UHGV virus genome: UHGV-2140017
Length of the DNA stretch: 24,660 nt
Reading direction: 5' to 3' (one strand)
From: a virus
Within the stretch, counting starts at the first letter, position 1. Each line of letters opens with the position of its first letter. The notes beneath the pieces were generated by a model. That model did no database searches. It worked only from the letters and a program-made list of their open reading frames with translations, and was not told the origin of the DNA. A program made the translations under genes and the position numbers. Below are positions 1 through 17,809 of the stretch, piece after piece.

Positions 1-333
1 TGCCTCCCGGTAAGTCGCCGCCAGTCCACAGACGACTCGCAATGCGCAAAAAAACATATCAGACTGGCAATGCCCCTCCGCATAGGGGGATTCACCACAC
101 GGATAATTTAGGATGTAGTCATAGGCGGCGTCAATAACTGACACTCTGTCAAAGGCATCATTACGATGCCTTTTGCACAGTGCTAATCACTGGATCTAAT
201 AAGGGGCCAGAGCAAAGCGATTACCCCGGCTACCAGCACGCCATCAGCCAGGATTGACATCATTTGCTGGTGAAGTCGATAGCAACCACCAGAAACAAAA
301 GCACCCCGGCTGCGGCCCAGCGAAGTTTACCGA

Positions 334-10640: not shown

Positions 10641-11086
10641 AAGTCACCTCCGCAGTAATTTCCGGCCAGATAGCATGACCCGGCAGAATCATTCATGTTT
10701 CTGGCGTTTCGAACAGAAGCATTCTTAAGACGCAGGTATCGCTCTCTTGCTTTAACCGTACAGTTGCTGTCACAAAGTTGCTGCCATACCGTCGCCGCAC
10801 GGCGGTAATAGCGTTTCTCTTCCAGCTTTTTGGCTGTCGCTTCAAGGGCAAGAATCTCCCCCGAAAGCCCACCAGGCAGGTACTCTTCAATATCGATGGA
10901 TCCCGCAACGAAGTAGATAAACCCACCAGTAACTTCAACGCTGGCAAGTTCCCCGTCGTAGTACAGGCGATGAACAGCGCTCTTCACTGTTACCGGTTTG
11001 GTTTCAGGAAATGCCGCAGTTATATCGCGCAGCATTTTGCCTGGATTCTTCTCAATAAATTCAAAGATCGACTTGGCTATGTTCAT
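10628..11086 (-). CDS. Putative ANR/PerC-family regulator-like protein
   Basis: C-terminal KLEEKRYYRRAATVWQQLCD resembles the RRAA-x-x-W core I recall for PerC/ANR proteins; N-terminal half looks like a winged helix. ATG overlaps the upstream stop. Confidence 0.4.
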   Translation of the reverse strand: MNIAKSIFEFIEKNPGKMLRDITAAFPETKPVTVKSAVHRLYYDGELASVEVTGGFIYFVAGSIDIEEYLPGGLSGEILALEATAKKLEEKRYYRRAATVWQQLCDSNCTVKARERYLRLKNASVRNARNMNDSAGSCYLAGNYCGGDLCSD

Positions 11087-11994
11087 CCCCGGAACCCCCG
11101 TGGAATCGTGGTTTGTACTGGACTAATTGAATTAACATCCCGCGGTCTGGTTTTGTCCCACGACTCCCTTGGCGGGCGGCCTTTAGCATCCCAACGGATA
11201 GCGCTTTGCAGATATCCCTCGAATTTTTTAGGGCCAAAAAGTGTCTCGGGGCGCATGTACTGGTATTGCTCGTCGTTGCCATGCCAGTGCTCATGCTTGA
11301 CGTCAATTACCAGTTTCAAGTCGCTAACGGTATGGCCTTCGCGGAGGCGGGCGCGAATGTTCTCCAGCGAGGTCTTAGATTTCTGGTAACGGGAACCGCT
11401 GACCAGATTCAGGTGTGCCAGAACTTCGATCGCGTTATCGGTAATAACAACTTCAGGATCCGGCTTATCTTCGGGTTCCGCAGGAGCCCGACAAGAAGGT
11501 TTTTTAGATGACGGATCTAATGACGGATCTAATGACGGATCGCCTTCAACCATTGAGGGGTCCTCCCGCAATATTTGAGGGGGTACAGACCCATTATTTG
11601 AGGCATCAGAATTTGACCCCTCAAATTTTGAACCCTCAAATTCTGAGGCATCAAATTTTGATTGTTCACGTGGCGTTGCGTAGAAGATTTTTGCTTCAGC
11701 TGCTGCACGTTCAAGCATGTCCACATTGAGTTTATAAACGTTCGAATTATTCTTTCCGCCCACGCGCCGTTCCTGCTTCTTCAGCCAGCCTTTAGCCTGA
11801 AGCTTTTTGATAGCGCTGCGGACAGTATTCTCGCTCTTGGCGCCGATCTGTCGCTGAATAGTGGTTACCGCTGGCCATGACACACCTTCGTCATTACTGA
11901 AATCTGCCAGGCGAGCCATGACCGCTATTTCTGAGATTATCAGCCCTTTGAAAGCGCATGCTTCCCATACGAGGCCGTGTAATTTACTGCTCAT
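11083..11994 (-). CDS. Phage replication initiator (O-like: N-terminal HTH, low-complexity linker, conserved phage C-terminal domain)
   Basis: N-terminal winged-helix region (ISEIAVMARLADFSNDEGVSWPAVTTIQRQIGAKSENTVRSAIKKLQAKGWL), linker encoded by the iteron DNA (DPSLDPSLDPSS), C-terminal domain typical of phage replication proteins. Position matches lambda O. Confidence 0.65.
   Translation of the reverse strand: MSSKLHGLVWEACAFKGLIISEIAVMARLADFSNDEGVSWPAVTTIQRQIGAKSENTVRSAIKKLQAKGWLKKQERRVGGKNNSNVYKLNVDMLERAAAEAKIFYATPREQSKFDASEFEGSKFEGSNSDASNNGSVPPQILREDPSMVEGDPSLDPSLDPSSKKPSCRAPAEPEDKPDPEVVITDNAIEVLAHLNLVSGSRYQKSKTSLENIRARLREGHTVSDLKLVIDVKHEHWHGNDEQYQYMRPETLFGPKKFEGYLQSAIRWDAKGRPPRESWDKTRPRDVNSISPVQTTIPRGFRG
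11508..11661. repeat. Iteron-like repeat array inside the replication initiator gene (candidate phage origin)
   Basis: Three tandem 12-bp units ATGACGGATCTA/ATGACGGATCTA/ATGACGGATCGC, then several direct and inverted copies of TTTGAGG/CCTCAAATT and two copies of GAGGCATCA(G)AATTTTGA in an AT-rich stretch. Confidence 0.55.
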
Positions 11995-12915: not shown

Positions 12916-13146
12916 TTACACCCCTGAAGCGCTATCGTTCTCATTAGCACCCTCGCCATAGAGCAACCAATGAGGATCGCAATGCAGGGCTGAAGACAAT
13001 TCAATGATGTAACGGGGCCTCTTTGTTAAACCCGCCTCGATCGCTTGTAATGACTGCTGGGTCATTCCGACCAATTCAGCCAATTGCGCTTGTGAGAGAT
13101 TCATCTCTTCACGTTTATTCTTTAATCTTTGAGAAATTGATCCCAT
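12916..13146 (-). CDS. cro: Cro-like HTH (XRE-family) repressor
   Basis: 76 aa with LSQAQLAELVGMTQQSLQAIEAG helix-turn-helix; divergent from cI across the operator region; GGAGG RBS. Confidence 0.8.
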   Translation of the reverse strand: MGSISQRLKNKREEMNLSQAQLAELVGMTQQSLQAIEAGLTKRPRYIIELSSALHCDPHWLLYGEGANENDSASGV

Positions 13147-13155
13147 AACACCTCC

Positions 13156-13214
13156 ACAGTTTTATCTGTATTTTTGAACAGATACTACTGTTTGTCAATC
13201 ACAGTTTAAACTGT
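13156..13214. promoter_or_regulatory. OR-type operator region: three ACAG-N6-CTGT operators with divergent PR (cro) and PRM (cI) promoters
   Basis: ACAGTTTTATCTGT (13156-13169), ACAGATACTACTGT (13178-13191), ACAGTTTAAACTGT (13201-13214), spaced ~22-23 bp. Minus-strand TTGACA -35 lies between sites 2 and 3. Confidence 0.7.
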
Positions 13215-13243: not shown

Positions 13244-13876
13244 ATGAGCCTTGCAGAACGCGTAAAACAAAAAAGAATCGAACTTGGTCTTACTCAAGAG
13301 CAAGCAGCTGAAAAGGCAGGAATAAGGCAACAATCATGGGCCAGCATTGAGGATGGAAAAACTAAAAAGCCTCGCAACATAGTAGGAATAAGCAAAGCAC
13401 TTAAGTGCGACCCAACATGGTTGATGAACGGTGGGCCTTTCATGGCTCTGGCCGATGTGAATTCAAGGAAAGTACCTTTGATCAGTTACGTCCAGGCTGG
13501 GGCGTTAGCAGAAAAACACCCTATTGATGCATTTGATGGTAGCTTCGAATACATCATGACTGACCTTGATATTTCTGAGTTTACTTTTGCACTAAGGATA
13601 GAAGGTGATTCAATGGAGCCTGACTTTAAAGAAGGCGACATTATCATTGTTGATCCCGAGTTAGAGCCCGTTCCGGGCGAGTTTGTTGTTGCTAAAAATG
13701 GTGAAAATGAGGCTACTTTTAAAAAGTACCGTCCTACATTTACCGATATTTCAGGCCGCCAGCAATATGAACTGGTCCCCCTTAATGACGACTACCCCAC
13801 CATTAATAGCTCTGAACGCCCGTTGAAAATTATCGGCGTAATGGTCGAACATAGAATTTACAGGCGAAAAAGGTAA
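13244..13876 (+). CDS. cI: CI-type phage repressor (HTH plus LexA-like S24 peptidase autocleavage domain)
   Basis: N-terminal HTH LTQEQAAEKAGIRQQSWASIEDGKTKKP; C-terminal S24 features (GDSMEP with catalytic Ser, downstream Lys in ATFKKY). GGAGG RBS. Confidence 0.9.
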   Translation: MSLAERVKQKRIELGLTQEQAAEKAGIRQQSWASIEDGKTKKPRNIVGISKALKCDPTWLMNGGPFMALADVNSRKVPLISYVQAGALAEKHPIDAFDGSFEYIMTDLDISEFTFALRIEGDSMEPDFKEGDIIIVDPELEPVPGEFVVAKNGENEATFKKYRPTFTDISGRQQYELVPLNDDYPTINSSERPLKIIGVMVEHRIYRRKR

Positions 13877-13914: not shown

Positions 13915-13976
13915 ACGTCTTTAGTTTCATAAAAAACAATAAATTACAGTTTTTTTAGTATAGTTCATCACTCAAT

Positions 13977-14019
13977 ACAGTTTTGACTGTTGACTCATTA
14001 ACAGTTTTATCTGTATTAT
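13977..14019 (+). promoter_or_regulatory. OL-type operators overlapping a PL-like promoter directed into the 14123 gene
   Basis: ACAGTTTTGACTGT (13977-13990) and ACAGTTTTATCTGT (14001-14014, identical to the first OR site), overlapping duplicated TTGACT -35 hexamers and a TATTAT -10 candidate (~14014-14019). Confidence 0.65.
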
Positions 14020-14356: not shown

Positions 14357-14532
14357 TGACCACAGGTATCTTCGGGAGGGGTTGCGGGGCTGGATTGACC
14401 ACCAGCAACAGAAACTCACCCGACACACAGCAGCCGTTTAGCCCACGGCGTCGGGGGTCCAGTATTCCTGGATTAATACTGTAGGGGTTGAGCCGGTTGG
14501 TCGCCGGCGCCCCGCCCGAAGATACTTGATGC

Positions 14533-14558
14533 AACAAAAAAGCGCCCCATAGGACGCT
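14533..14558 (-). terminator. Intrinsic terminator (minus strand) downstream of the 156-aa gene
   Basis: Minus-strand hairpin AAGCGTCC-TATG-GGGCGCTT (8 bp with one G-U) followed by TTTTTTGTTG, ~30 nt after the stop at 14590. Confidence 0.55.
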
Positions 14559-14589
14559 TCGCTCTTTAACAATCTGGATATCTTTAACA

Positions 14590-15060
14590 TCAGTAACTGG
14601 CTGGAGGTGCAGAGTCTGTATCAAACACATTCTGACAGGAGGGACATCTGCTTTGATTGAAACTCGCATACATACTCACCTGTTGAGGTTGCAGTATGGA
14701 TACTTTATTTGCAGCAAAACAATGTGGACAAAGATGCACGGTTATTTCCGTATCACCCACAATCTGCTTCTTGGAATACACCAGAGAACCAGAATCAAAC
14801 TTATTCAGAACATAGCCTTCGGTTTGGCTTTTGAAGTCTTCAAACTCTGCAATTTTTGCTTTGAGAAGCATTACCTTCTCGTCACGAGAACGGATGGCAT
14901 CACCAAGAGAGAAACATTCAGCTTGGAGGGTGATTAGTTTGTTCTGAAGCTCAATAGTTGCAGCTTTAACTTCAGCATCAGTTTTCGCGTCATTAATGAC
15001 TTTTGCAAGACCCGCAGTCTCCTTTATCGCGGTCATAGCCGCGGATAGTTCAGCTATCAC
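14590..15060 (-). CDS. Hypothetical coiled-coil protein with C-terminal zinc-ribbon, convergent with the PL transcript
   Basis: N-terminal ~90 aa amphipathic coiled coil (KLITLQAECFSLGDAIRSRDEKVMLLKAKIAEFEDFK); C-terminal CPHC-x28-CPSC pairs. Own terminator. Start ambiguous (GTG at 15060 or ATG at 15036). Confidence 0.55.
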   Translation of the reverse strand: MIAELSAAMTAIKETAGLAKVINDAKTDAEVKAATIELQNKLITLQAECFSLGDAIRSRDEKVMLLKAKIAEFEDFKSQTEGYVLNKFDSGSLVYSKKQIVGDTEITVHLCPHCFAANKVSILQPQQVSMYASFNQSRCPSCQNVFDTDSAPPASY

Positions 15061-15893
15061 TATGAATACTCATCATGTTGTTGGGGATATCCAGATTAAC
15101 CGAATCCTTGTTGTTGGGGAATAACCAGGATCCACCTCGCCTGATGTGGGTAAAAGCAGGCACACAACATGAAAGCGCATTCCATCTTCCATCGGTCGTG
15201 GGGACTGGTTTGTAACTGAAGGAGTGCGCTTCCAGTTGTGAACGGCAATATTCGCAACCGTTGTATGGCACATGCAGCGTTAGCGGCCTGAGAGTTCCCT
15301 TGATCCATGCGCTCTCAGAACAACCGGAAATGTGCAAGCTAAGTGTTTCAGGCACGACGTGCGCCCCACCAGCGCGGCGAAAAGGTGTGACGCCCGGGAA
15401 GAGTCCGGGACACAACGATGAGGGCATTGACGAGCAAGGCACAGAGTCTGGTTCGATTCCAGACGCCAGGATAGTTCTATATCTGGTGATGGGCAGGGAA
15501 AAGGTCCGTTCGATTCGGGCACCGGCAGTGCTCTCTTCGTTGTGGTAATTGCGGCTATGCGCACGTGGCGAGCCAACCCGTTCATGGAATGCGTTTCCGG
15601 GCAGTGTACGTCGCCGGTTATGGCTTAACCCGGCAGGTGGAGGCACCACCGCCACAACCTAGTTAACTGTGCTGTGTGTAGTCTTGGCGGTTATCCGTTT
15701 TCCACTATCCAAAGGAGGAAGAGGATAACGTTCTGATGGATAACCGCCCTTTTTACACAATACACAAGAGCATCACCGGGCGACGGGCTCATTACCCAAT
15801 CCACCCGGGCGGCGTCCTAACCGCAGGTGCTCTTCTGTGTTGTGTACGGAGAAATTCCCGGCGGTGGCAGCCGCCTTTCGAGAGGGTAAAACC
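15061..15893. other. ORF-poor, GC-rich, hairpin- and repeat-dense segment (candidate structured ncRNA or long regulatory leader)
   Basis: Only overlapping R/P/S-rich ORFs in all six frames. Contains a tRNA T-arm-like element with a GGTTCGATTCC loop (~15447-15463), an 11-bp perfect inverted repeat followed by T5, several GC hairpins and imperfect direct repeats. Coordinates +/-2 nt. Confidence 0.3.
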
Positions 15894-16265
15894 ATGAGTA
15901 ATGATCGCATGACAGTCGTGCCTGATTTCCTGGGCGAACTGGACGCCGGCGTATTCATGAACAAGATTGCGGCGGCTCTTAATACCACCGCACTCGGCGT
16001 TCTGAATAACGGCAACAAAGGCAAGGTAGTCCTCACCTTTGATTTTGAGCGTATGGGCAACTCTGTTGAAGAGAAGCGCGTCAAGATTAAGCACAAGCTG
16101 AACTACAGCACCCCTACTCCCCGCGGCAAAGCGTCGGAAGAGGACACCACCGAAACACCAATGTGGGTTAACAAAGGCGGCAAGCTCACTATCCTGCAGG
16201 AGGATCAGGGGCAACTCTTCGGTATCACCGGCACGGTGGACGGAAAGCTTAAAGCGGCTCAGTGA
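15894..16265 (+). CDS. Hypothetical protein (123 aa), first gene of the plus-strand operon
   Basis: ATG (MSNDRMTVVPD...) with GAGAGGG RBS; the ORF-track start at 15837 is GTG. Sits immediately upstream of YfdQ/YfdR-like genes. Confidence 0.55.
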   Translation: MSNDRMTVVPDFLGELDAGVFMNKIAAALNTTALGVLNNGNKGKVVLTFDFERMGNSVEEKRVKIKHKLNYSTPTPRGKASEEDTTETPMWVNKGGKLTILQEDQGQLFGITGTVDGKLKAAQ

Positions 16266-16321
16266 TCCGCCCGCACAAATTCACTGATACCACTTCGCTA
16301 ATCAGTTAATAAGGAATTTTT

Positions 16322-17149
16322 ATGTCTCAGTTAGACAGCGGTACTTTTCAGCAAGTCAAAGACCTGGTGCTTTCCGGTTATCACCTGAACGATATCCCCG
16401 GCCTGGCCTGCCCAACCGCCCTGTTACCTCAAAATACAAGCGTTGAAAGCCTGGAGCGTTTTGCTTTTGAGCGCTTTCGTTTCCGTGGCGCCATGGACAC
16501 AACCAGCATTGATGATTTCGTTCGCTATTCTGTCGCCTATGCCCAGGAAGAAGAAAAAGCACGTTGCTTTATTGATGCCGATAACATGCTGGCTCGTTCT
16601 ATCTTCAATATCGGCACGTTGGACAACCCAGGCCACGCTGATAACGTCGCCTCGATCAAGCTTAAGAAGACAGCGCCCTTCCGCGCGTTACTGTCGATCA
16701 ACGGCGATCACCTTAATCAGAAGAAAATCGCCGAATGGCTCGAAGACTGGAGCGACTATCTCACTGCGTTCGATGCTGACGGACAGACAATGAAAATTGC
16801 ACAGGCAGCGCAGGCGGTTCGCCGTGTCACTATCCAGCAAACTAATGCCGCCGATCATGAAGACGGTGATTTCAGCGGCAAAAAATCGCTGATGCAAAGT
16901 ATCGAAGCCAGCAGTAAAGATGTTATGCCGGTCGCGTTTGAGTTTAAGTGTGTACCCTATGAAGGCCTGGGCGAACGTCGTTTCAGTCTGCGCAACAGTC
17001 TGCTGAAAAGTAGCGACCCGGTTTTCGTTCTGCGTATTGTCCAACTGGAGGCCCAGGAAGAAGCGATCGCCAATGAGTTCCGTGATCTGCTGGTTGGCAA
17101 GTTCGACGGCAAGCCGGTAGAAACCTTTATCGGCAACTTCAAAGCCTGA
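16322..17149 (+). CDS. YfdQ-like prophage protein (DUF2303 family, tentative)
   Basis: 275-aa ORF directly upstream of a YfdR-like HD-domain gene, matching the CPS-53 yfdQ-yfdR order and size as I recall them. Call is by synteny and length only. Confidence 0.45.
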   Translation: MSQLDSGTFQQVKDLVLSGYHLNDIPGLACPTALLPQNTSVESLERFAFERFRFRGAMDTTSIDDFVRYSVAYAQEEEKARCFIDADNMLARSIFNIGTLDNPGHADNVASIKLKKTAPFRALLSINGDHLNQKKIAEWLEDWSDYLTAFDADGQTMKIAQAAQAVRRVTIQQTNAADHEDGDFSGKKSLMQSIEASSKDVMPVAFEFKCVPYEGLGERRFSLRNSLLKSSDPVFVLRIVQLEAQEEAIANEFRDLLVGKFDGKPVETFIGNFKA

Positions 17150-17281
17150 TTGCTCTCCATTAAATCCCCGTCGTTGCGGGGATTTATTAAAGCGTAATCC
17201 TGCAATTAATCGCCACCTGGCGAGGGATTCCTACACCCAAAAATCAGCGCTGTGCAGAGCGCAATTAAATGGAGAAATACG

Positions 17282-17809
17282 ATGAGCTTTATACAAACGT
17301 TCACAGGCAAGCACTTTAACTATCTCGCTATCCAGCTGGATGCCATTGAGATCGAAGATATCGCTAACGCGCTCTCGAATATTTGCCGCTTTGCTGGCCA
17401 TCTTCCGGAGTTCTACAGCGTCGGTCAGCACAGCGTGTTAACCAGCCACCTGGTACCACAGGAGTTTGCACTTCAAGCACTGCTGCACGATGCCGCAGAG
17501 GCTTATTTGCAGGATATTCCAGCACCGCTTAAACGCCTGCTCCCGGACTACCGCGCCATTGAGGATCGGGTTGATGCTGCTATCCGTCAAAAATTTGGCC
17601 TTCCATCTGAGCAGCACCCGACCGTGAAGTATGCCGACCTTGTGATGCTGGCCAGCGAACGTCGCGACTTTGAAATCGACGACGGCACCCACTGGCCGAT
17701 GCTCGAAGGCATTATTCCCACCGACCAATTTGTGATTAATCCCGTCCGCCCTGGTCAATCTTACGGCATGTTCATGAACCGCTTTAACCAACTGATGGAG
17801 CGGCGCTAA
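17282..17809 (+). CDS. HD-domain phosphohydrolase, YfdR-like (putative 5'-deoxynucleotidase)
   Basis: HD-domain residues in SNICRFAGH and ALLHDAAEAY; overall colinear with E. coli YfdR from memory. ATG 17282 (MSFIQTF) preceded by GGAG. Confidence 0.7.
   Translation: MSFIQTFTGKHFNYLAIQLDAIEIEDIANALSNICRFAGHLPEFYSVGQHSVLTSHLVPQEFALQALLHDAAEAYLQDIPAPLKRLLPDYRAIEDRVDAAIRQKFGLPSEQHPTVKYADLVMLASERRDFEIDDGTHWPMLEGIIPTDQFVINPVRPGQSYGMFMNRFNQLMERR

What the first reader, a model, noticed from the sequence alone, without database searches (positions are those of the whole stretch)
15686..15897. Large hairpin enclosing a ribosome-binding site and the start of a 53-aa upstream ORF coupled to the first operon gene
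An 11-bp perfect inverted repeat GGCGGTTATCC...GGATAACCGCC (~15686-15696 and ~15739-15749) is followed by CTTTTT. It encloses AAAGGAGGAAGAGG and an ATG (~15736) opening a basic 53-aa ORF (MDNRPFYTIHKSITGRR...) whose TGA overlaps the ATG of the 123-aa gene (ATGA). A second small hairpin GGCGG-TGGCAG-CCGCC sits ~30 nt before that ATG. This looks like an attenuator or translational-coupling control at the entrance to the plus-strand operon.
Basis: seen in the sequence. Interest (0 to 1): 0.45.

Follow-up and report, generated by a model that had tools for sequence, protein, structure and literature searches.

The report
Prophage small-RNA terminator before yfdP operon
The hairpin is the transcription terminator that ends a prophage small RNA of an already described kind (STnc100 / sRNA-17 / DicF-like), which sits in the long untranslated leader in front of the phage's early-left operon; the 53-codon reading frame drawn through it is most likely not a gene.

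Summary
The window is an ST64B/SfV-type lambdoid prophage. The hairpin (15686-15748) and its T-run (15750-15754) lie about 1.85 kb downstream of the OL operators and 139 nt upstream of yfdP.

Among 107 distinct related leaders, 99 have a hairpin followed by T4-7 at this position, with 27 different basal stem sequences. Selection therefore acts on the structure. By alignment, window ~15539-15754 is homologous to RNAs in SfV and ST64B that match Rfam STnc100 below its threshold. It is also homologous to the RACE-mapped 193-nt sRNA-17 of E. coli K1. The terminator module resembles that of DicF.

The 53-aa ORF is not supported. Its start codon is not conserved, and the ATGA overlap follows trivially from yfdP beginning ATG-AGT. 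Frames open across the whole span occur in 61 of 69 leaders, in any frame.

The terminator is followed by a conserved 20-bp stem with five covarying pairs. This stem is probably an RNase III site, by analogy with the Qin dicF locus. After it comes the small hairpin, which is conserved with many different stems.

Verdict: a divergent member of a known kind of prophage sRNA and terminator. The attenuator idea is partly right; the coupled uORF is not supported.

The parts
15411..15544 (+). Upstream long stem 'B2' (CACAACGATGAGGGCATTGACG ... CGGCAGTGCTCTCTTCGTTGTG) enclosing several hairpins. It is the proposed RNase III processing stem that would create the 5' end of the sRNA.
   Evidence: Inverted repeat I3 and fold. 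The same kind of stem precedes the homologous RNAs in mEp460 and Qin, where the mapped 5' ends fall in its 3' arm. Processing in this window is inferred, not shown.
15539..15754 (+). STnc100 / sRNA-17-like prophage small RNA. It has a body closed by GUUGUGGU (15539-15546) pairing with GCCACAAC (15651-15658). The body contains GCGGCUAUGCGCACGUGG and the hairpin GGUGGAGGCACCACC (15636-15650). A GU-rich linker and the terminator follow.
   Evidence: Alignment A1 with SfV, ST64B, mEp460 and IMG/VR relatives. blastn against the ST64B region: 238 nt, 63% identity, E 7e-15 in a small search space. The SfV and ST64B counterparts match Rfam STnc100 at 39.5 and 35.1 bits. The mEp460 counterpart equals the RACE-mapped sRNA-17. 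The fold shows the outer helix. The 5' end is set by analogy only.
15668..15685 (+). GU-rich stretch TGTGCTGTGTGTAGTCTT just 5' of the terminator. It is conserved in most variants and is a candidate single-stranded seed.
   Evidence: GCTGTGTGTAGTCTT is conserved across different terminator types. No complementary site exists elsewhere in the window. The target is unknown.
15686..15748 (+). Terminator hairpin, the object of the finding. It has an 11-bp perfect basal stem, extended to 14 bp in the fold. The 41-nt interior folds on itself, with GUUUUCC..UAUCC pairing with GGAGGAAGAGG.
   Evidence: Structural conservation with 27 different basal stems in 99 of 107 related leaders. Weak DicF-model match at 15673-15749, 16.9 bits.
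15750..15754 (+). U-tract (TTTTT) of the terminator, one nucleotide (C15749) after the stem.
   Evidence: A T4-T7 run is present at this place in 99 of 107 related leaders.
15755..15845 (+). Long stem 'B3': 20-bp outer helix ACACAATACACAAGAGCATC / GGTGCTCTTCTGTGTTGTGT. It closes a three-way junction that contains a nearly invariant hairpin (CACCGGGCGACGGGCTCATTACCCAATCCACCCGGGC) and a variable hairpin. Proposed RNase III site and regulatory element of read-through transcripts.
   Evidence: In 28 distinct sequences 95.5% of cells are paired, 5 of 20 pairs carry compensatory double changes, 0 of 500 shuffles reach the observed covariation, and slid controls pair at 56% or less. The invariant hairpin motif occurs in more than 120 IMG/VR contigs. 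No Rfam family matches it.
15848..15854 (+). Conserved GGAGAAA motif after B3. It can pair, mostly through G-U pairs, with the U-tract and so extend B3.
   Evidence: Conserved in alignment A2 and in 63 distinct downstream segments. The pairing with the T-run appeared in the arm search. Function unknown.
15860..15875 (+). Small hairpin 'C': GGCGG-TGGCAG-CCGCC, 4 nt upstream of the Shine-Dalgarno sequence of yfdP.
   Evidence: Present in nearly all related leaders with different stems (CGACC/GGUCG, GCCCC/GGGGC, AACGCC/GGCGUU, GGCGGCC/GGCCGCC, GGCUG/CAGCC). The loop usually contains UGCAG. It is also present where the first gene is not yfdP.
15880..15897 (+). Shine-Dalgarno GAGAGGG (15880-15886), a 7-nt spacer, and the ATG (15894) of yfdP, the first gene of the early-left operon (yfdP 15894-16265, yfdQ 16322-17149, yfdR-like 17252-17809).
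   Evidence: DUF2303, YfbR-like. BLAST annotation 'YfdP family phage-associated protein'.
15736..15897 (+). Mechanical 53-codon ORF. Judged not to be a gene.
   Evidence: No Pfam match.

Best explanation
The large hairpin plus T-run is the Rho-independent terminator that forms the 3' end of a ~215-nt prophage-encoded small RNA (about 15539-15754, plus strand). The RNA belongs to the STnc100 / sRNA-17 / PasD kind, and its terminator module resembles that of DicF. It lies in the ~1.85-kb, largely non-coding and highly structured leader between the OL/PL region (operators at 13976 and 14000) and yfdP, the first gene of the early-left operon.

Proposed mechanism:
- Transcription enters from upstream, most likely from PL; no promoter-like site was found nearby.
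- RNase III cuts the long stem B2 (15411-15544) and so makes the 5' end of the sRNA.
- RNA polymerase stops at the hairpin and U-tract, releasing the sRNA. This keeps transcription of yfdP and the genes after it low.
- Transcripts that read through fold into the 20-bp stem B3 (15755-15845), which also draws in the U-tract. RNase III cleavage there would separate the sRNA part from the yfdP mRNA, leaving hairpin C (15860-15875) near the new 5' end, just before an unpaired Shine-Dalgarno sequence.

Shown here: the anatomy; the conservation and covariation of the terminator, B3 and C; homology of the region to STnc100-like RNAs and to sRNA-17; and the portability of the terminator-B3-C cassette in front of different first genes.

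Inferred: that termination happens, that RNase III cleaves, the source of transcription, and any trans-acting role of the sRNA.

The SD-like purine run in the loop is best read as the 3' strand of an inner helix. The 53-aa ORF is best read as a by-product of a stop-poor structured sequence.
For: Context:
- cI-like S24 repressor at 13244-13876, cro-like gene at 12916-13146(-).
- Operators ACAGTTTnnnnCTGT at 13155, 13200, 13976 and 14000.
- The gene order matches ST64B, SfV and mEp460.

Terminator:
- GC-rich stem, then one C, then T5.
- Eight or more stem types in 70 leaders; 27 basal stems in 99 of 107 leaders of a wider sample. All abut a T4-7 run directly before B3.

sRNA identity:
- SfV L002 2800-3015 matches STnc100 over the full model (39.5 bits, E 3e-7 in the narrow search), and the model's terminal hairpin coincides with this terminator.
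- ST64B scores 35.1 bits. L005, whose body is almost identical to the window's, scores 29.9 bits for DicF on its terminator.
- Alignment A1 and blastn against ST64B (E 7e-15) tie the window to these RNAs.
- sRNA-17 of E. coli K1 (193 nt by RACE, seen on a Northern blot) has the sequence of mEp460 L003 2819-3011 and ends ...CUGGUACCGCUCUUUU.
- STnc100 is a recognised prophage sRNA related to PasD.

Processing:
- The 190-nt DicF 5' end is made by RNase III. It maps to L085 2246, inside the 3' arm of a B-type stem.
- The sRNA-17 5' end maps to the base of the equivalent stem.

Barrier function:
- Replacing sRNA-17 with a cassette raised yfdP about 95-fold and also raised yfdR.
- In Qin, no transcript extending past dicF into dicB was detected.

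B3 covariation. Conservation of C. Cassette in front of yfdP-like, RdgC-like and yfdR-like genes.
Against: - The window sequence itself does not reach any Rfam threshold. There is no STnc100 hit even at E<=10 in a 271-nt search, and DicF scores 16.9 bits against a threshold of 48. The SfV and ST64B matches are also below the STnc100 gathering score of 47. Family membership therefore rests on alignment through intermediates.
- The fold of 15533-15756 is not more stable than shuffles (z -0.94).
- The hairpin 'loop' is 41 nt, which is atypical for an intrinsic terminator, and the U-tract has only five U.
- No expression data exist for this phage.
- The sRNA-17 deletion used a CmR cassette, so the rise in yfdP could be read-through from the cassette rather than loss of the terminator.
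- The orientation of sRNA-17 relative to yfdP was deduced from the paper's 'negative strand' statement and the supplementary alignment. It was not checked on the RS218 genome, which is absent from the collection.
- How the phage expresses the operon past this terminator after induction is unknown.
- No target of the sRNA was found. In particular there is no DicF-like complementarity to ftsZ.
Confidence: 0.72

Rival explanations
1. Leader-peptide attenuator or translational coupling. Ribosomes start at the ATG inside the hairpin, translate the 53-codon uORF through the downstream structures and terminate on the yfdP start (ATGA), so opening or coupling yfdP translation. Initiation inside the hairpin might also prevent the terminator from forming.
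For: - A purine-rich SD-like run and an ATG lie in the loop and 3' arm, and the frame is open as far as the yfdP ATG.
- Two other large-loop hairpin variants (IMG/VR 'type 2' and ST64B/118970_sal3/F1055) have a good SD, 8-9 nt, then ATG or GTG, then TTCT. Their ORFs run 45-63 codons and mostly end within 16 nt of the first gene or run in frame into it.
- In the 241-nt fold the MFE pairs the 5' arm with a proximal GGATAAC copy instead of forming the terminator.
Against: - In the window the conserved start position reads ACG-TTC-TGA.
- The window's ATG is 18 nt from GGAGG (11 nt from GAGG) and is paired in the stem.
- The window frame differs from the frame used in ST64B and type 2.
- uORF end points vary widely: in frame with yfdP, or 7, 13, 16, 34 or 79 nt upstream.
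- Short-loop terminators in SfV, mEp460 and many others have no SD or start codon.
- Fully open frames occur in any frame in 61 of 69 leaders, and 25 leaders have two.
- The ATGA overlap is a consequence of Met-Ser at the start of yfdP.
- Variation in the conserved hairpin inside B3 is compensatory for pairing, not synonymous.
- The cassette precedes unrelated genes.
Confidence: 0.07
2. A plain insulating terminator with no RNA product of its own function. The hairpin only stops transcription coming from cI/PRM, from PL leakage or from the inserted genes, so that the early-left operon stays silent in the lysogen. The upstream 'sRNA' would then be merely the stable 3' remnant of that transcript.
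For: - Position between the immunity region and the operon.
- yfdP and yfdR are essentially silent in the wild-type K1 lysogen and rise when the region is replaced.
- No target was found for the GU-rich stretch in the window, and there is no ftsZ complementarity.
- A few related leaders lack the terminator altogether (L046, L052, L055, L159, L080).
Against: - The sequence just 5' of the stem (GCUGUGUGUAGUCUU) and the body motifs are conserved across phages whose terminator stems differ.
- Relatives accumulate as discrete RNAs: sRNA-17 by Northern blot and RACE.
- The family is catalogued as a prophage sRNA, and the literature read here treats it as a base-pairing sRNA with a described seed region.
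- The two readings are not exclusive. The best explanation already includes the barrier role.
Confidence: 0.17
3. A DNA-level palindrome, that is a binding or recombination site acting on double-stranded DNA rather than an RNA structure.
For: - Break points of phage mosaicism fall at the neighbouring CACAAC/GTTGTG motifs.
- The interior of B3 occurs in both orientations in different phages. Recombination therefore does act on the inverted repeats of this region.
Against: - For the terminator hairpin the arm sequences differ freely between phages while complementarity, G-U pairs (GGCGGUGCC/GGUACCGCC) and the strand-specific T-run are kept. This is the signature of an RNA helix.
- The operator palindromes of this phage are a different sequence, located elsewhere.
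Confidence: 0.03

Closest known systems
STnc100 (Rfam RF02076), prophage-encoded sRNA of Salmonella and E. coli; related to PasD
   Same: - Architecture of ~200 nt: an outer helix GUUGUGGUG...CACCACAAC encloses hairpins, including CCGGGAGGCACCCGG (window: GGUGGAGGCACCACC). A linker and a 3' intrinsic terminator follow.
- Prophage location.
- The counterparts in SfV and ST64B match the model at 39.5 and 35.1 bits. A canonical copy (53.6 bits) sits at the left edge of this same window.
   Different: - The window copy gives no hit to the model even at E<=10.
- Its interior is longer and different, and its terminator has a 41-nt structured loop.
- It lies in the early-left leader next to the immunity region. 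[quoted passage not shown]
sRNA-17 of E. coli K1 RS218 (mEp460-like prophage; Front Microbiol 2020, PMC7719688)
   Same: - Same genomic position, directly upstream of the B3 element and yfdP.
- Same 5' motif GUUGUGGUGAAUGCG, the same ...CACCACAAC, and a terminator of the GGCGGUACCAG type.
- Replacing it changes yfdP and yfdR expression.
   Different: - The interior of the body and the terminator stem and loop differ.
- mEp460 lacks the GCUGUGUGUAGUCUU stretch.
- The ArcA regulation and virulence phenotypes reported for sRNA-17 cannot be transferred to this copy.
DicF (Rfam RF00039) and the dicBF operon of the Qin prophage
   Same: - An sRNA embedded in a PL-type operon downstream of a cI-like repressor.
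- Similar terminator: UUUGGCGGUAUCAGUUUU...CCGCCCUUUUUA against CUUGGCGGUUAUCCGUUUU...CCGCCCUUUUUA.
- A B-type long stem lies upstream, where RNase III makes the 190-nt species.
- An STnc100-like core forms the dicB leader.
- The terminator limits expression of the downstream genes.
   Different: - Only 16.9 bits on the DicF model (threshold 48).
- The 5' seed is different.
- There is no complementarity to the ftsZ translation initiation region beyond shuffles (z +1.9 and -0.5, against -2.6 for DicF).
- The order of the modules differs: in Qin DicF precedes the STnc100-like core, whereas here the core precedes the terminator.
RNase III site in the lambda N leader and the RNase III sites of T7 early mRNA (from general knowledge, not tested here)
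   Same: A long (about 20 bp or more) double-stranded stem in an early-operon leader between a regulatory RNA element and the first cistron. Cleavage would remodel the 5' end of the mRNA.
   Different: - No sequence similarity was looked for or found.
- Cleavage of B3 has not been shown.
- B3 also carries an invariant internal hairpin that a mere RNase III site would not need.
Leader-peptide attenuators (trp, pyrBI type)
   Same: A terminator hairpin in an operon leader with an overlapping short open reading frame.
   Different: There is no conserved start codon, frame or peptide, no conserved alternative antiterminator pairing, and most relatives have no initiation signals at all.
HK022 putL antiterminator RNA
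   Same: A cis-acting structured RNA at the head of the early-left operon of a lambdoid phage with an HK022-like repressor.
   Different: - No significant similarity: best blastn-short match 11 nt, E 0.06.
- The architecture differs: one long closing stem with a three-way junction, against two adjacent stem-loops.
- Here the element lies after a terminator and far from PL.

Membership tests
STnc100 (RF02076) | Score at or above the Rfam gathering threshold (47 bits) on the covariance model | tested here: not met
   Window 15500-15770: no STnc100 match at E<=10. None in 14900-16000 at E<=5. The homologues score 39.5 bits (SfV) and 35.1 bits (ST64B), also below threshold.
STnc100 (RF02076) | Architecture: outer helix GUUGUGGUG/CACCACAAC, internal hairpins including ..GGAGGCACC.., then a linker and a terminal hairpin with a U-run | tested here: met
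   Alignment A1, fold, model alignment on SfV, blastn against ST64B with E 7e-15.
STnc100 (RF02076) | Accumulates as a discrete ~200-nt RNA in vivo | not testable with these tools
   Only indirect evidence: sRNA-17, the mEp460 counterpart, is 193 nt by RACE and Northern blot.
DicF (RF00039) | Score at or above the Rfam gathering threshold (48 bits) | tested here: not met
   16.9 bits at 15673-15749. The relative L005, with a short loop, scores 29.9 bits.
DicF (RF00039) | Complementarity to the ftsZ translation initiation region | tested here: not met
   RNAduplex against E. coli ftsZ -40..+25: DicF z -2.6 (1% of shuffles as good). Window sRNA z -0.5, and its seed plus terminator z +1.9. SfV, L005 and ST64B score no better than shuffles.
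DicF (RF00039) | Embedded in a PL-type operon downstream of the repressor gene, with an RNase III stem upstream | tested here: met
   Operators and gene order. Stem B2. Comparison with Qin. Cleavage itself was not tested.
Intrinsic (Rho-independent) terminator | GC-rich stem immediately followed by a U-tract | tested here: met
   The 11-bp perfect stem (14 bp in the fold, -27 kcal/mol) is followed by one C and then T5. The simple scanner missed it because its loop limit is 8 nt.
Intrinsic (Rho-independent) terminator | Structure kept through sequence change in relatives | tested here: met
   27 distinct basal stems in 99 of 107 leaders, each with a T4-7 run.
Intrinsic (Rho-independent) terminator | Terminates transcription | not testable with these tools
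   Indirect only: the 3' end of sRNA-17 lies at the U-run, and no transcript past dicF was detected in Qin.
Leader-peptide attenuator / coupled uORF | Conserved start codon with a functional Shine-Dalgarno spacing | tested here: not met
   GGAGG lies 18 nt before the ATG, and the ATG is paired in the stem. The position that carries ATG or GTG in other variants is ACG here. It is absent from short-loop variants.
Leader-peptide attenuator / coupled uORF | Reading frame conserved, and open more often than expected | tested here: not met
   The 53-aa frame occurs only in window-type leaders. Open frames occur in any frame in 61 of 69 leaders.
Leader-peptide attenuator / coupled uORF | Conserved alternative (antiterminator) pairing | tested here: inconclusive
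   A proximal GGATAAC copy can pair with the 5' arm in the window type (MFE). It has no clear counterpart in other hairpin types.
RNase III processing stem | About two helical turns of double-stranded RNA kept by covariation | tested here: met
   B3 has 20 pairs with 95.5% of cells paired and 5 pairs with double changes. The arms were chosen by best complementarity, which biases the paired fraction slightly.
RNase III processing stem | Cleaved by RNase III | not testable with these tools
   By analogy only: the RNase III-dependent 5' end of the 190-nt DicF maps inside the equivalent stem of Qin.
HK022 put antiterminator RNA | Sequence and two-stem architecture of putL/putR | tested here: not met
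   No significant similarity. Different predicted architecture.

The most novel reading that the evidence does not exclude
The terminator may be only the first part of a portable, three-part 'operon-entrance cassette' that has not been described as a unit. The parts are:
- a variable sRNA terminator;
- B3, a 20-bp covarying stem closing a three-way junction with a ~37-nt nearly invariant hairpin (GCGACGGGCUCAUWACCCAAUCCACCCGG), which no Rfam family matches;
- hairpin C, whose stem sequences differ between relatives and whose loop usually contains UGCAG.

The cassette is found in more than 120 viral contigs. It precedes different first genes of early-left operons (yfdP-like, RdgC-like, yfdR-like) in SfV, ST64B, mEp460 and Stx-phage relatives.

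The invariant hairpin and the conserved loop of C suggest recognition by a specific factor. The cassette could therefore be a new cis-regulatory RNA. One possibility is an RNase III-gated switch that links sRNA release to expression of the operon. Another is a nut/put-like site that makes RNA polymerase resistant to termination after read-through. In addition, the B-type stems behave like recombination linkers: mosaic break points fall at them, the B3 interior is inverted in some phages, and the cassette is deleted in L080.
Probability: 0.25. Interest if true: 0.6.

Novelty: new member of a known kind. Interest (0 to 1): 0.3.

Why it matters
- For annotation: a 53-aa 'gene' should not be called here. 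N-terminally extended YfdP calls, such as the one in Salmonella phage 118970_sal3, are probably start-site errors.
- For phage biology: the result places a divergent STnc100/sRNA-17-type sRNA, invisible to the current Rfam models, at the entrance of the early-left operon of a Klebsiella-type ST64B/SfV-like prophage.
- It also offers a simple cis explanation, loss of a terminator or read-through, for the strongest effect reported for the sRNA-17 deletion in E. coli K1 (yfdP up about 95-fold).
- The comparison with Qin suggests that lambdoid early-left leaders are built from shuffled RNA modules: long RNase III-type stems, STnc100-like cores and DicF-like terminators.
- The downstream B3 and C elements are widespread, strongly conserved and not catalogued, so they deserve an experimental look.

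Tried and rejected
- tRNA or tmRNA: two T-arm-like hairpins lie at 15446-15464 and 15504-15520, but ARAGORN finds nothing.
- HK022 put-type antiterminator: no similarity and a different architecture.
- DicF-like targeting of ftsZ: no signal above shuffles, while the DicF control works.
- A target for the GU-rich stretch within the window: none.
- A sigma-70 promoter close to the sRNA or between the terminator and yfdP: the scanner finds none in 14400-16400 except one inside yfdP. Inspection of the loop gives only poor hexamers.
- Conserved small protein: rejected by the frame and start-codon analyses. No Pfam match.
- boxA/nut reading of UGCUCUU in the 3' arms of the long stems: rejected, because the bases vary and covary with the opposite arm.
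- Anti-SD pairing between the terminator tail (CCCUUUU) and the yfdP SD: it is seen in the MFE, and the SfV and mEp460 tails also fit their own SD. However, pyrimidine tails and purine-rich SDs are complementary by nature, so it is left as an idea only.
- Fetching the RS218 genome to check the orientation of sRNA-17: the genome is not in the collection.
- Not used, because the comparative DNA evidence was decisive: the large protein homology search, structure prediction and custom covariance models.
Full report
**1. Observation**

- GGCGGTTATCC is at 15686-15696 and GGATAACCGCC at 15738-15748, one base left of the stated position.
- C15749 and TTTTT 15750-15754 follow.
- The loop holds AAAGGAGGAAGAGG (15711-15724) and an ATG at 15736.
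- The mechanical ORF 15736-15897 encodes 53 aa, and its TGA overlaps the ATG of the next gene.
- GGCGG-TGGCAG-CCGCC is at 15860-15875.

The inverted repeat is one of only seven in the 24.6-kb window with an exact seed of 10 nt or more and arms no more than 60 nt apart. A 241-nt stretch around it folds more stably than shuffles (z -4.3).

**2. Context**

The window is a lambdoid prophage of the ST64B/SfV type. It is 96% identical over 86% of a 1.4-kb query to Klebsiella phage Kp4866-6.
- A cro-like HTH gene (12916-13146, minus strand) faces a cI-like HTH plus S24 peptidase repressor gene (13244-13876, plus strand).
- The palindrome ACAGTTTnnnnCTGT occurs twice between these genes (13155, 13200) and twice just after cI (13976, 14000). 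This places OL/PL near 14000.
- The plus-strand operon begins at 15894 with yfdP, followed by yfdQ (DUF2303), a YfdR-like HD phosphohydrolase and a ParB-like protein.
- ST64B, SfV and mEp460 have the same order. In SfV the operon runs on to xis and int, so it is the early-left operon.
- Between OL and yfdP the window has a 77-aa ORF, a reverse-oriented 156-aa insert with its own terminator, and about 830 nt (15060-15893) with no credible ORF.

**3. The hairpin in related leaders**

I collected the DNA upstream of 80 yfdP loci from IMG/VR, from ST64B, SfV and mEp460, and later from more than 120 viral contigs that share a motif from the downstream element.

Seventy distinct 300-nt leaders showed a modular pattern: a GU-rich stretch (GCTGTGTGTAGTCTT), a hairpin with a T-run, a long stem (here called B3), the motif GGAGAAA, a small hairpin (C), the Shine-Dalgarno sequence and the ATG.

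The hairpin stems differ widely. Examples are GGCGGTTATCC, GGCGGTACCAGGG, GGCGGTGCCAG paired with CTGGTACCGCC through a G-U pair, GTCGGCGTCCGGC, CTGGCGGCCCGG, TGCCCATC and GCGGCATC. All of them are followed within three nucleotides by T4-T7. In the wider sample, 99 of 107 distinct leaders have such a hairpin, with 27 distinct basal stems. Only a handful lack it. Free change of sequence with preserved pairing, G-U pairs and a strand-specific T-run identify an RNA helix of the intrinsic-terminator type.

**4. What the terminator ends**

Rfam gives no significant match in the window itself. The only hit is a 16.9-bit DicF match at 15673-15749 against a threshold of 48.

The homologous loci do give matches.
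- SfV 2800-3015 matches the whole STnc100 model (39.5 bits, E 3e-7 in the narrow search; threshold 47). The model's terminal hairpin coincides with this terminator.
- ST64B scores 35.1 bits.
- L005, whose RNA body is almost identical to the window's but has a short-loop terminator, scores 29.9 bits for DicF.

Alignment A1 shows blocks shared between window 15533-15756 and these RNAs: CGTTGTGGTRAWTGCGGCT..GCGCACG.GG..GGAGGCACC..CCACAAC, TGCTGTGTGTAGTCTTGGCGG and CCGCCCTTTTTACACAA. blastn against the ST64B region gives a 238-nt alignment at 63% identity with E 7e-15 in a small search space. The predicted fold has the STnc100-type outer helix GUUGUGGU/GCCACAAC enclosing hairpins.

The literature supports an RNA product.
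- In E. coli K1 RS218, 'sRNA-17' was mapped by 5'/3' RACE as a 193-nt RNA in an mEp460-like prophage and was seen on Northern blots.
- Its sequence in the supplementary alignment is the reverse complement of the mEp460 segment ending ...CTGGTACCGCTCTTTT. This corresponds to L003 2819-3011: it starts at GTTGTGGTGAATGCG and ends in the U-run of this terminator.
- STnc100 is described as a prophage sRNA related to PasD.

By homology, the window therefore encodes a ~215-nt RNA from about 15539 to 15754. It is a divergent relative and does not pass the formal Rfam tests.

**5. Processing and the long stems**

Three long stems share the pattern CACAAC..AAGNGCA / UGCNCUU..GUUGUG: B1 (15162-15240), B2 (15411-15544) and B3 (15755-15845).

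The Qin prophage has one at L085 2174-2258, upstream of dicF. An STnc100-like core forms the dicB leader there. In Qin the 190-nt DicF species depends on RNase III, and primer extension places its 5' end at an RNase III cut. Counting 190 nt back from the DicF 3' end gives L085 2246, which lies inside the 3' arm of that stem. The RACE 5' end of sRNA-17 falls at the base of the equivalent stem in mEp460.

I therefore infer that B2 is where RNase III makes the 5' end of the window's sRNA. I also infer that B3, directly after the U-run, is cut in read-through transcripts.

Evidence on B3:
- In 28 distinct sequences its 20-pair outer helix is paired in 95.5% of cells.
- Five pairs show compensatory double changes.
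- No shuffle out of 500 reaches the observed covariation, and slid controls pair at 56% or less.
- The arms were picked by best complementarity, which biases the paired fraction a little, but the 5' arm always begins right after the T-run.
- Its interior is a three-way junction with a nearly invariant ~37-nt hairpin and a variable one. Changes in the invariant hairpin in SfV, L035 and L048 are compensatory for pairing.
- No Rfam family matches B3.

**6. Barrier function**

Replacing sRNA-17 in RS218 raised yfdP by 2^6.6 and also raised yfdR. These were by far the largest increases among the seven up-regulated genes. This is what loss of a terminator in front of the operon would produce. However, the deletion used a CmR cassette, so read-through from the cassette is an equally simple cause.

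In Qin no transcript extending beyond dicF into dicB was detected.

How the induced phage passes this terminator is unknown. The U-tract has only five U, so partial read-through is plausible. I found no put-like element and no obvious N-like gene.

**7. The 53-aa ORF**

Several tests speak against a gene.
- The overlapping TGA is present in 68 of 70 leaders simply because yfdP starts ATG-AGT. The 53-aa frame is found only in leaders nearly identical to the window. ST64B, SfV and most others have 0-24 codons in that frame.
- Three large-loop hairpin types share the loop sequence SD-like run, 8-9 nt, NNN, TTCT. NNN is ATG in 'type 2' and GTG in ST64B, but ACG in the window, followed by TTC-TGA.
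- The window's own ATG lies 6 nt further on, in another frame, 18 nt from GGAGG, and is paired in the stem.
- In the variants that do have a start codon, the ORF ends at various places: in frame with yfdP, or 7, 13, 16, 34 or 79 nt upstream.
- The decisive control: over the 57-67 codons from the hairpin to the ATG, at least one frame stays open to within 20 nt of the start (or runs on into it) in 61 of 69 leaders, and two frames do so in 25. This includes SfV and mEp460, which have no initiation signals. The sequence is simply poor in stop codons.
- The purine run pairs with GUUUUCC..UAUCC inside the loop.
- The cassette also precedes RdgC-like and YfdR-like genes.

Translation of a short frame in some variants cannot be excluded, but it is not a conserved feature of the element.

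**8. The small hairpin C**

Hairpin C is conserved 4-12 nt upstream of the SD in nearly all leaders, with stems as different as GGCGG/CCGCC, CGACC/GGUCG, GCCCC/GGGGC, AACGCC/GGCGUU, GGCGGCC/GGCCGCC and GGCUG/CAGCC. Its loop usually contains UGCAG.

It does not sequester the SD. Its role is unknown. It could be a protective 5' hairpin after cleavage at B3, or a protein-binding site.

**9. Comparison and novelty**

The element works like the DicF and STnc100 loci: an sRNA cut out of an early prophage transcript and ended by an intrinsic terminator that also limits downstream expression.

It fails the formal Rfam membership tests for both families. It also lacks the DicF complementarity to ftsZ: z -0.5 or worse for the window RNA, against -2.6 for DicF.

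I file it as a new, divergent member of a known kind. The more novel possibility is that terminator, B3 and C form a portable regulatory cassette with an uncharacterised, sequence-specific component. That is not excluded, and I give it about one chance in four.

**10. Scores**

- Interest 0.3: the finding is real and its interpretation was partly right, but it resolves mainly into known biology.
- Confidence in the main explanation 0.72.

Noticed in passing
window 1-129 (minus strand): A canonical STnc100 sRNA gene (Rfam RF02076, 53.6 bits, above the gathering score of 47), cut off by the left edge of the window. The prophage therefore carries at least two members of this RNA kind.
   Followed up: partly
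window 15162-15240 and 15411-15544: Two further long stems (B1, B2) of the same CACAAC..AAGNGCA / UGCNCUU..GUUGUG pattern as B3. BLAST matches of other phages and of about 1000 E. coli genomes start and stop at these motifs, so they look like linkers of mosaic recombination. The segment 15162-15432 is widespread and unannotated ('none').
   Followed up: partly
window 15446-15464 and 15504-15520: Two T-arm-like hairpins (GTCTGGTTCGATTCCAGAC and GTCCGTTCGATTCGGGC) lie inside B2. ARAGORN finds no tRNA or tmRNA. Their function is unknown.
   Followed up: partly
L014/L015 versus L006/L008/L011/L022/L074, about 110 nt upstream of yfdP: The ~73-nt interior of the B3 element is the exact reverse complement in the two groups of phages. 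This indicates an inversion between the 21-bp inverted arms, or insertion in both orientations, as seen with small palindromic mobile elements.
   Followed up: partly
L080, upstream of yfdP: This leader lacks both the terminator and B3. CACCACAAC is joined almost directly to GTGTATGGAGAAA, which looks like a deletion between the repeated motifs. L046, L052, L055 and L159 lack the terminator but keep B3.
   Followed up: no
window 13155-13169, 13200-13214, 13976-13990, 14000-14014: Four copies of the palindrome ACAGTTTnnnnCTGT, two between the cro-like and cI-like genes and two just downstream of cI. They are probably the OR and OL operators.
   Followed up: partly
window 14539-15097: A reverse-oriented 156-aa gene (14590-15060, minus strand; weak TerY_C metal-binding match) with its own minus-strand terminator (14560-14539). 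It is flanked by 22-nt inverted repeats (14571-14592 and 15076-15097). It looks like a moron-type insert sitting in the path of the PL transcript.
   Followed up: no
L086 (Salmonella phage 118970_sal3) 911-1444: The deposited CDS AOP04186.1 (177 aa) starts at the GTG inside the terminator loop and runs in frame into yfdP. This is probably a mis-called start codon.
   Followed up: partly
L088 (Salmonella phage F1055) and IMG/VR loci L093, L110, L119, L121, L090: The same terminator-B3-hairpin C cassette precedes other first genes instead of yfdP: RdgC-like (MNNPFFKN.., MKLPKFRN..) and YfdR-like.
   Followed up: partly
Terminator loops, e.g. window 15697-15703; DicF at L085 2405-2415: Many terminator variants, and DicF itself, carry a pyrimidine-rich GUUUUCC(C)/CUCUUCC/UUUUACUCC motif in the 5' half of the loop. 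It is complementary, with one bulge, to the conserved GGAGAAAC after B3. In large-loop variants it is paired with the SD-like purine run. Unexplained.
   Followed up: no
window 11596-11656: A near-perfect palindrome with 30-nt arms separated by 1 nt, plus a nearby 14-nt inverted repeat (11569-11582 / 11617-11630). Both lie inside the 303-aa minus-strand ORF 11083-11994. This may be an origin-like structure within a replication gene.
   Followed up: no
L014 2204-2340: A sub-threshold RprA match (46.9 bits against 70, E 0.008) covers the STnc100-like RNA and terminator of this variant. It probably reflects the shared terminator-type architecture.
   Followed up: no
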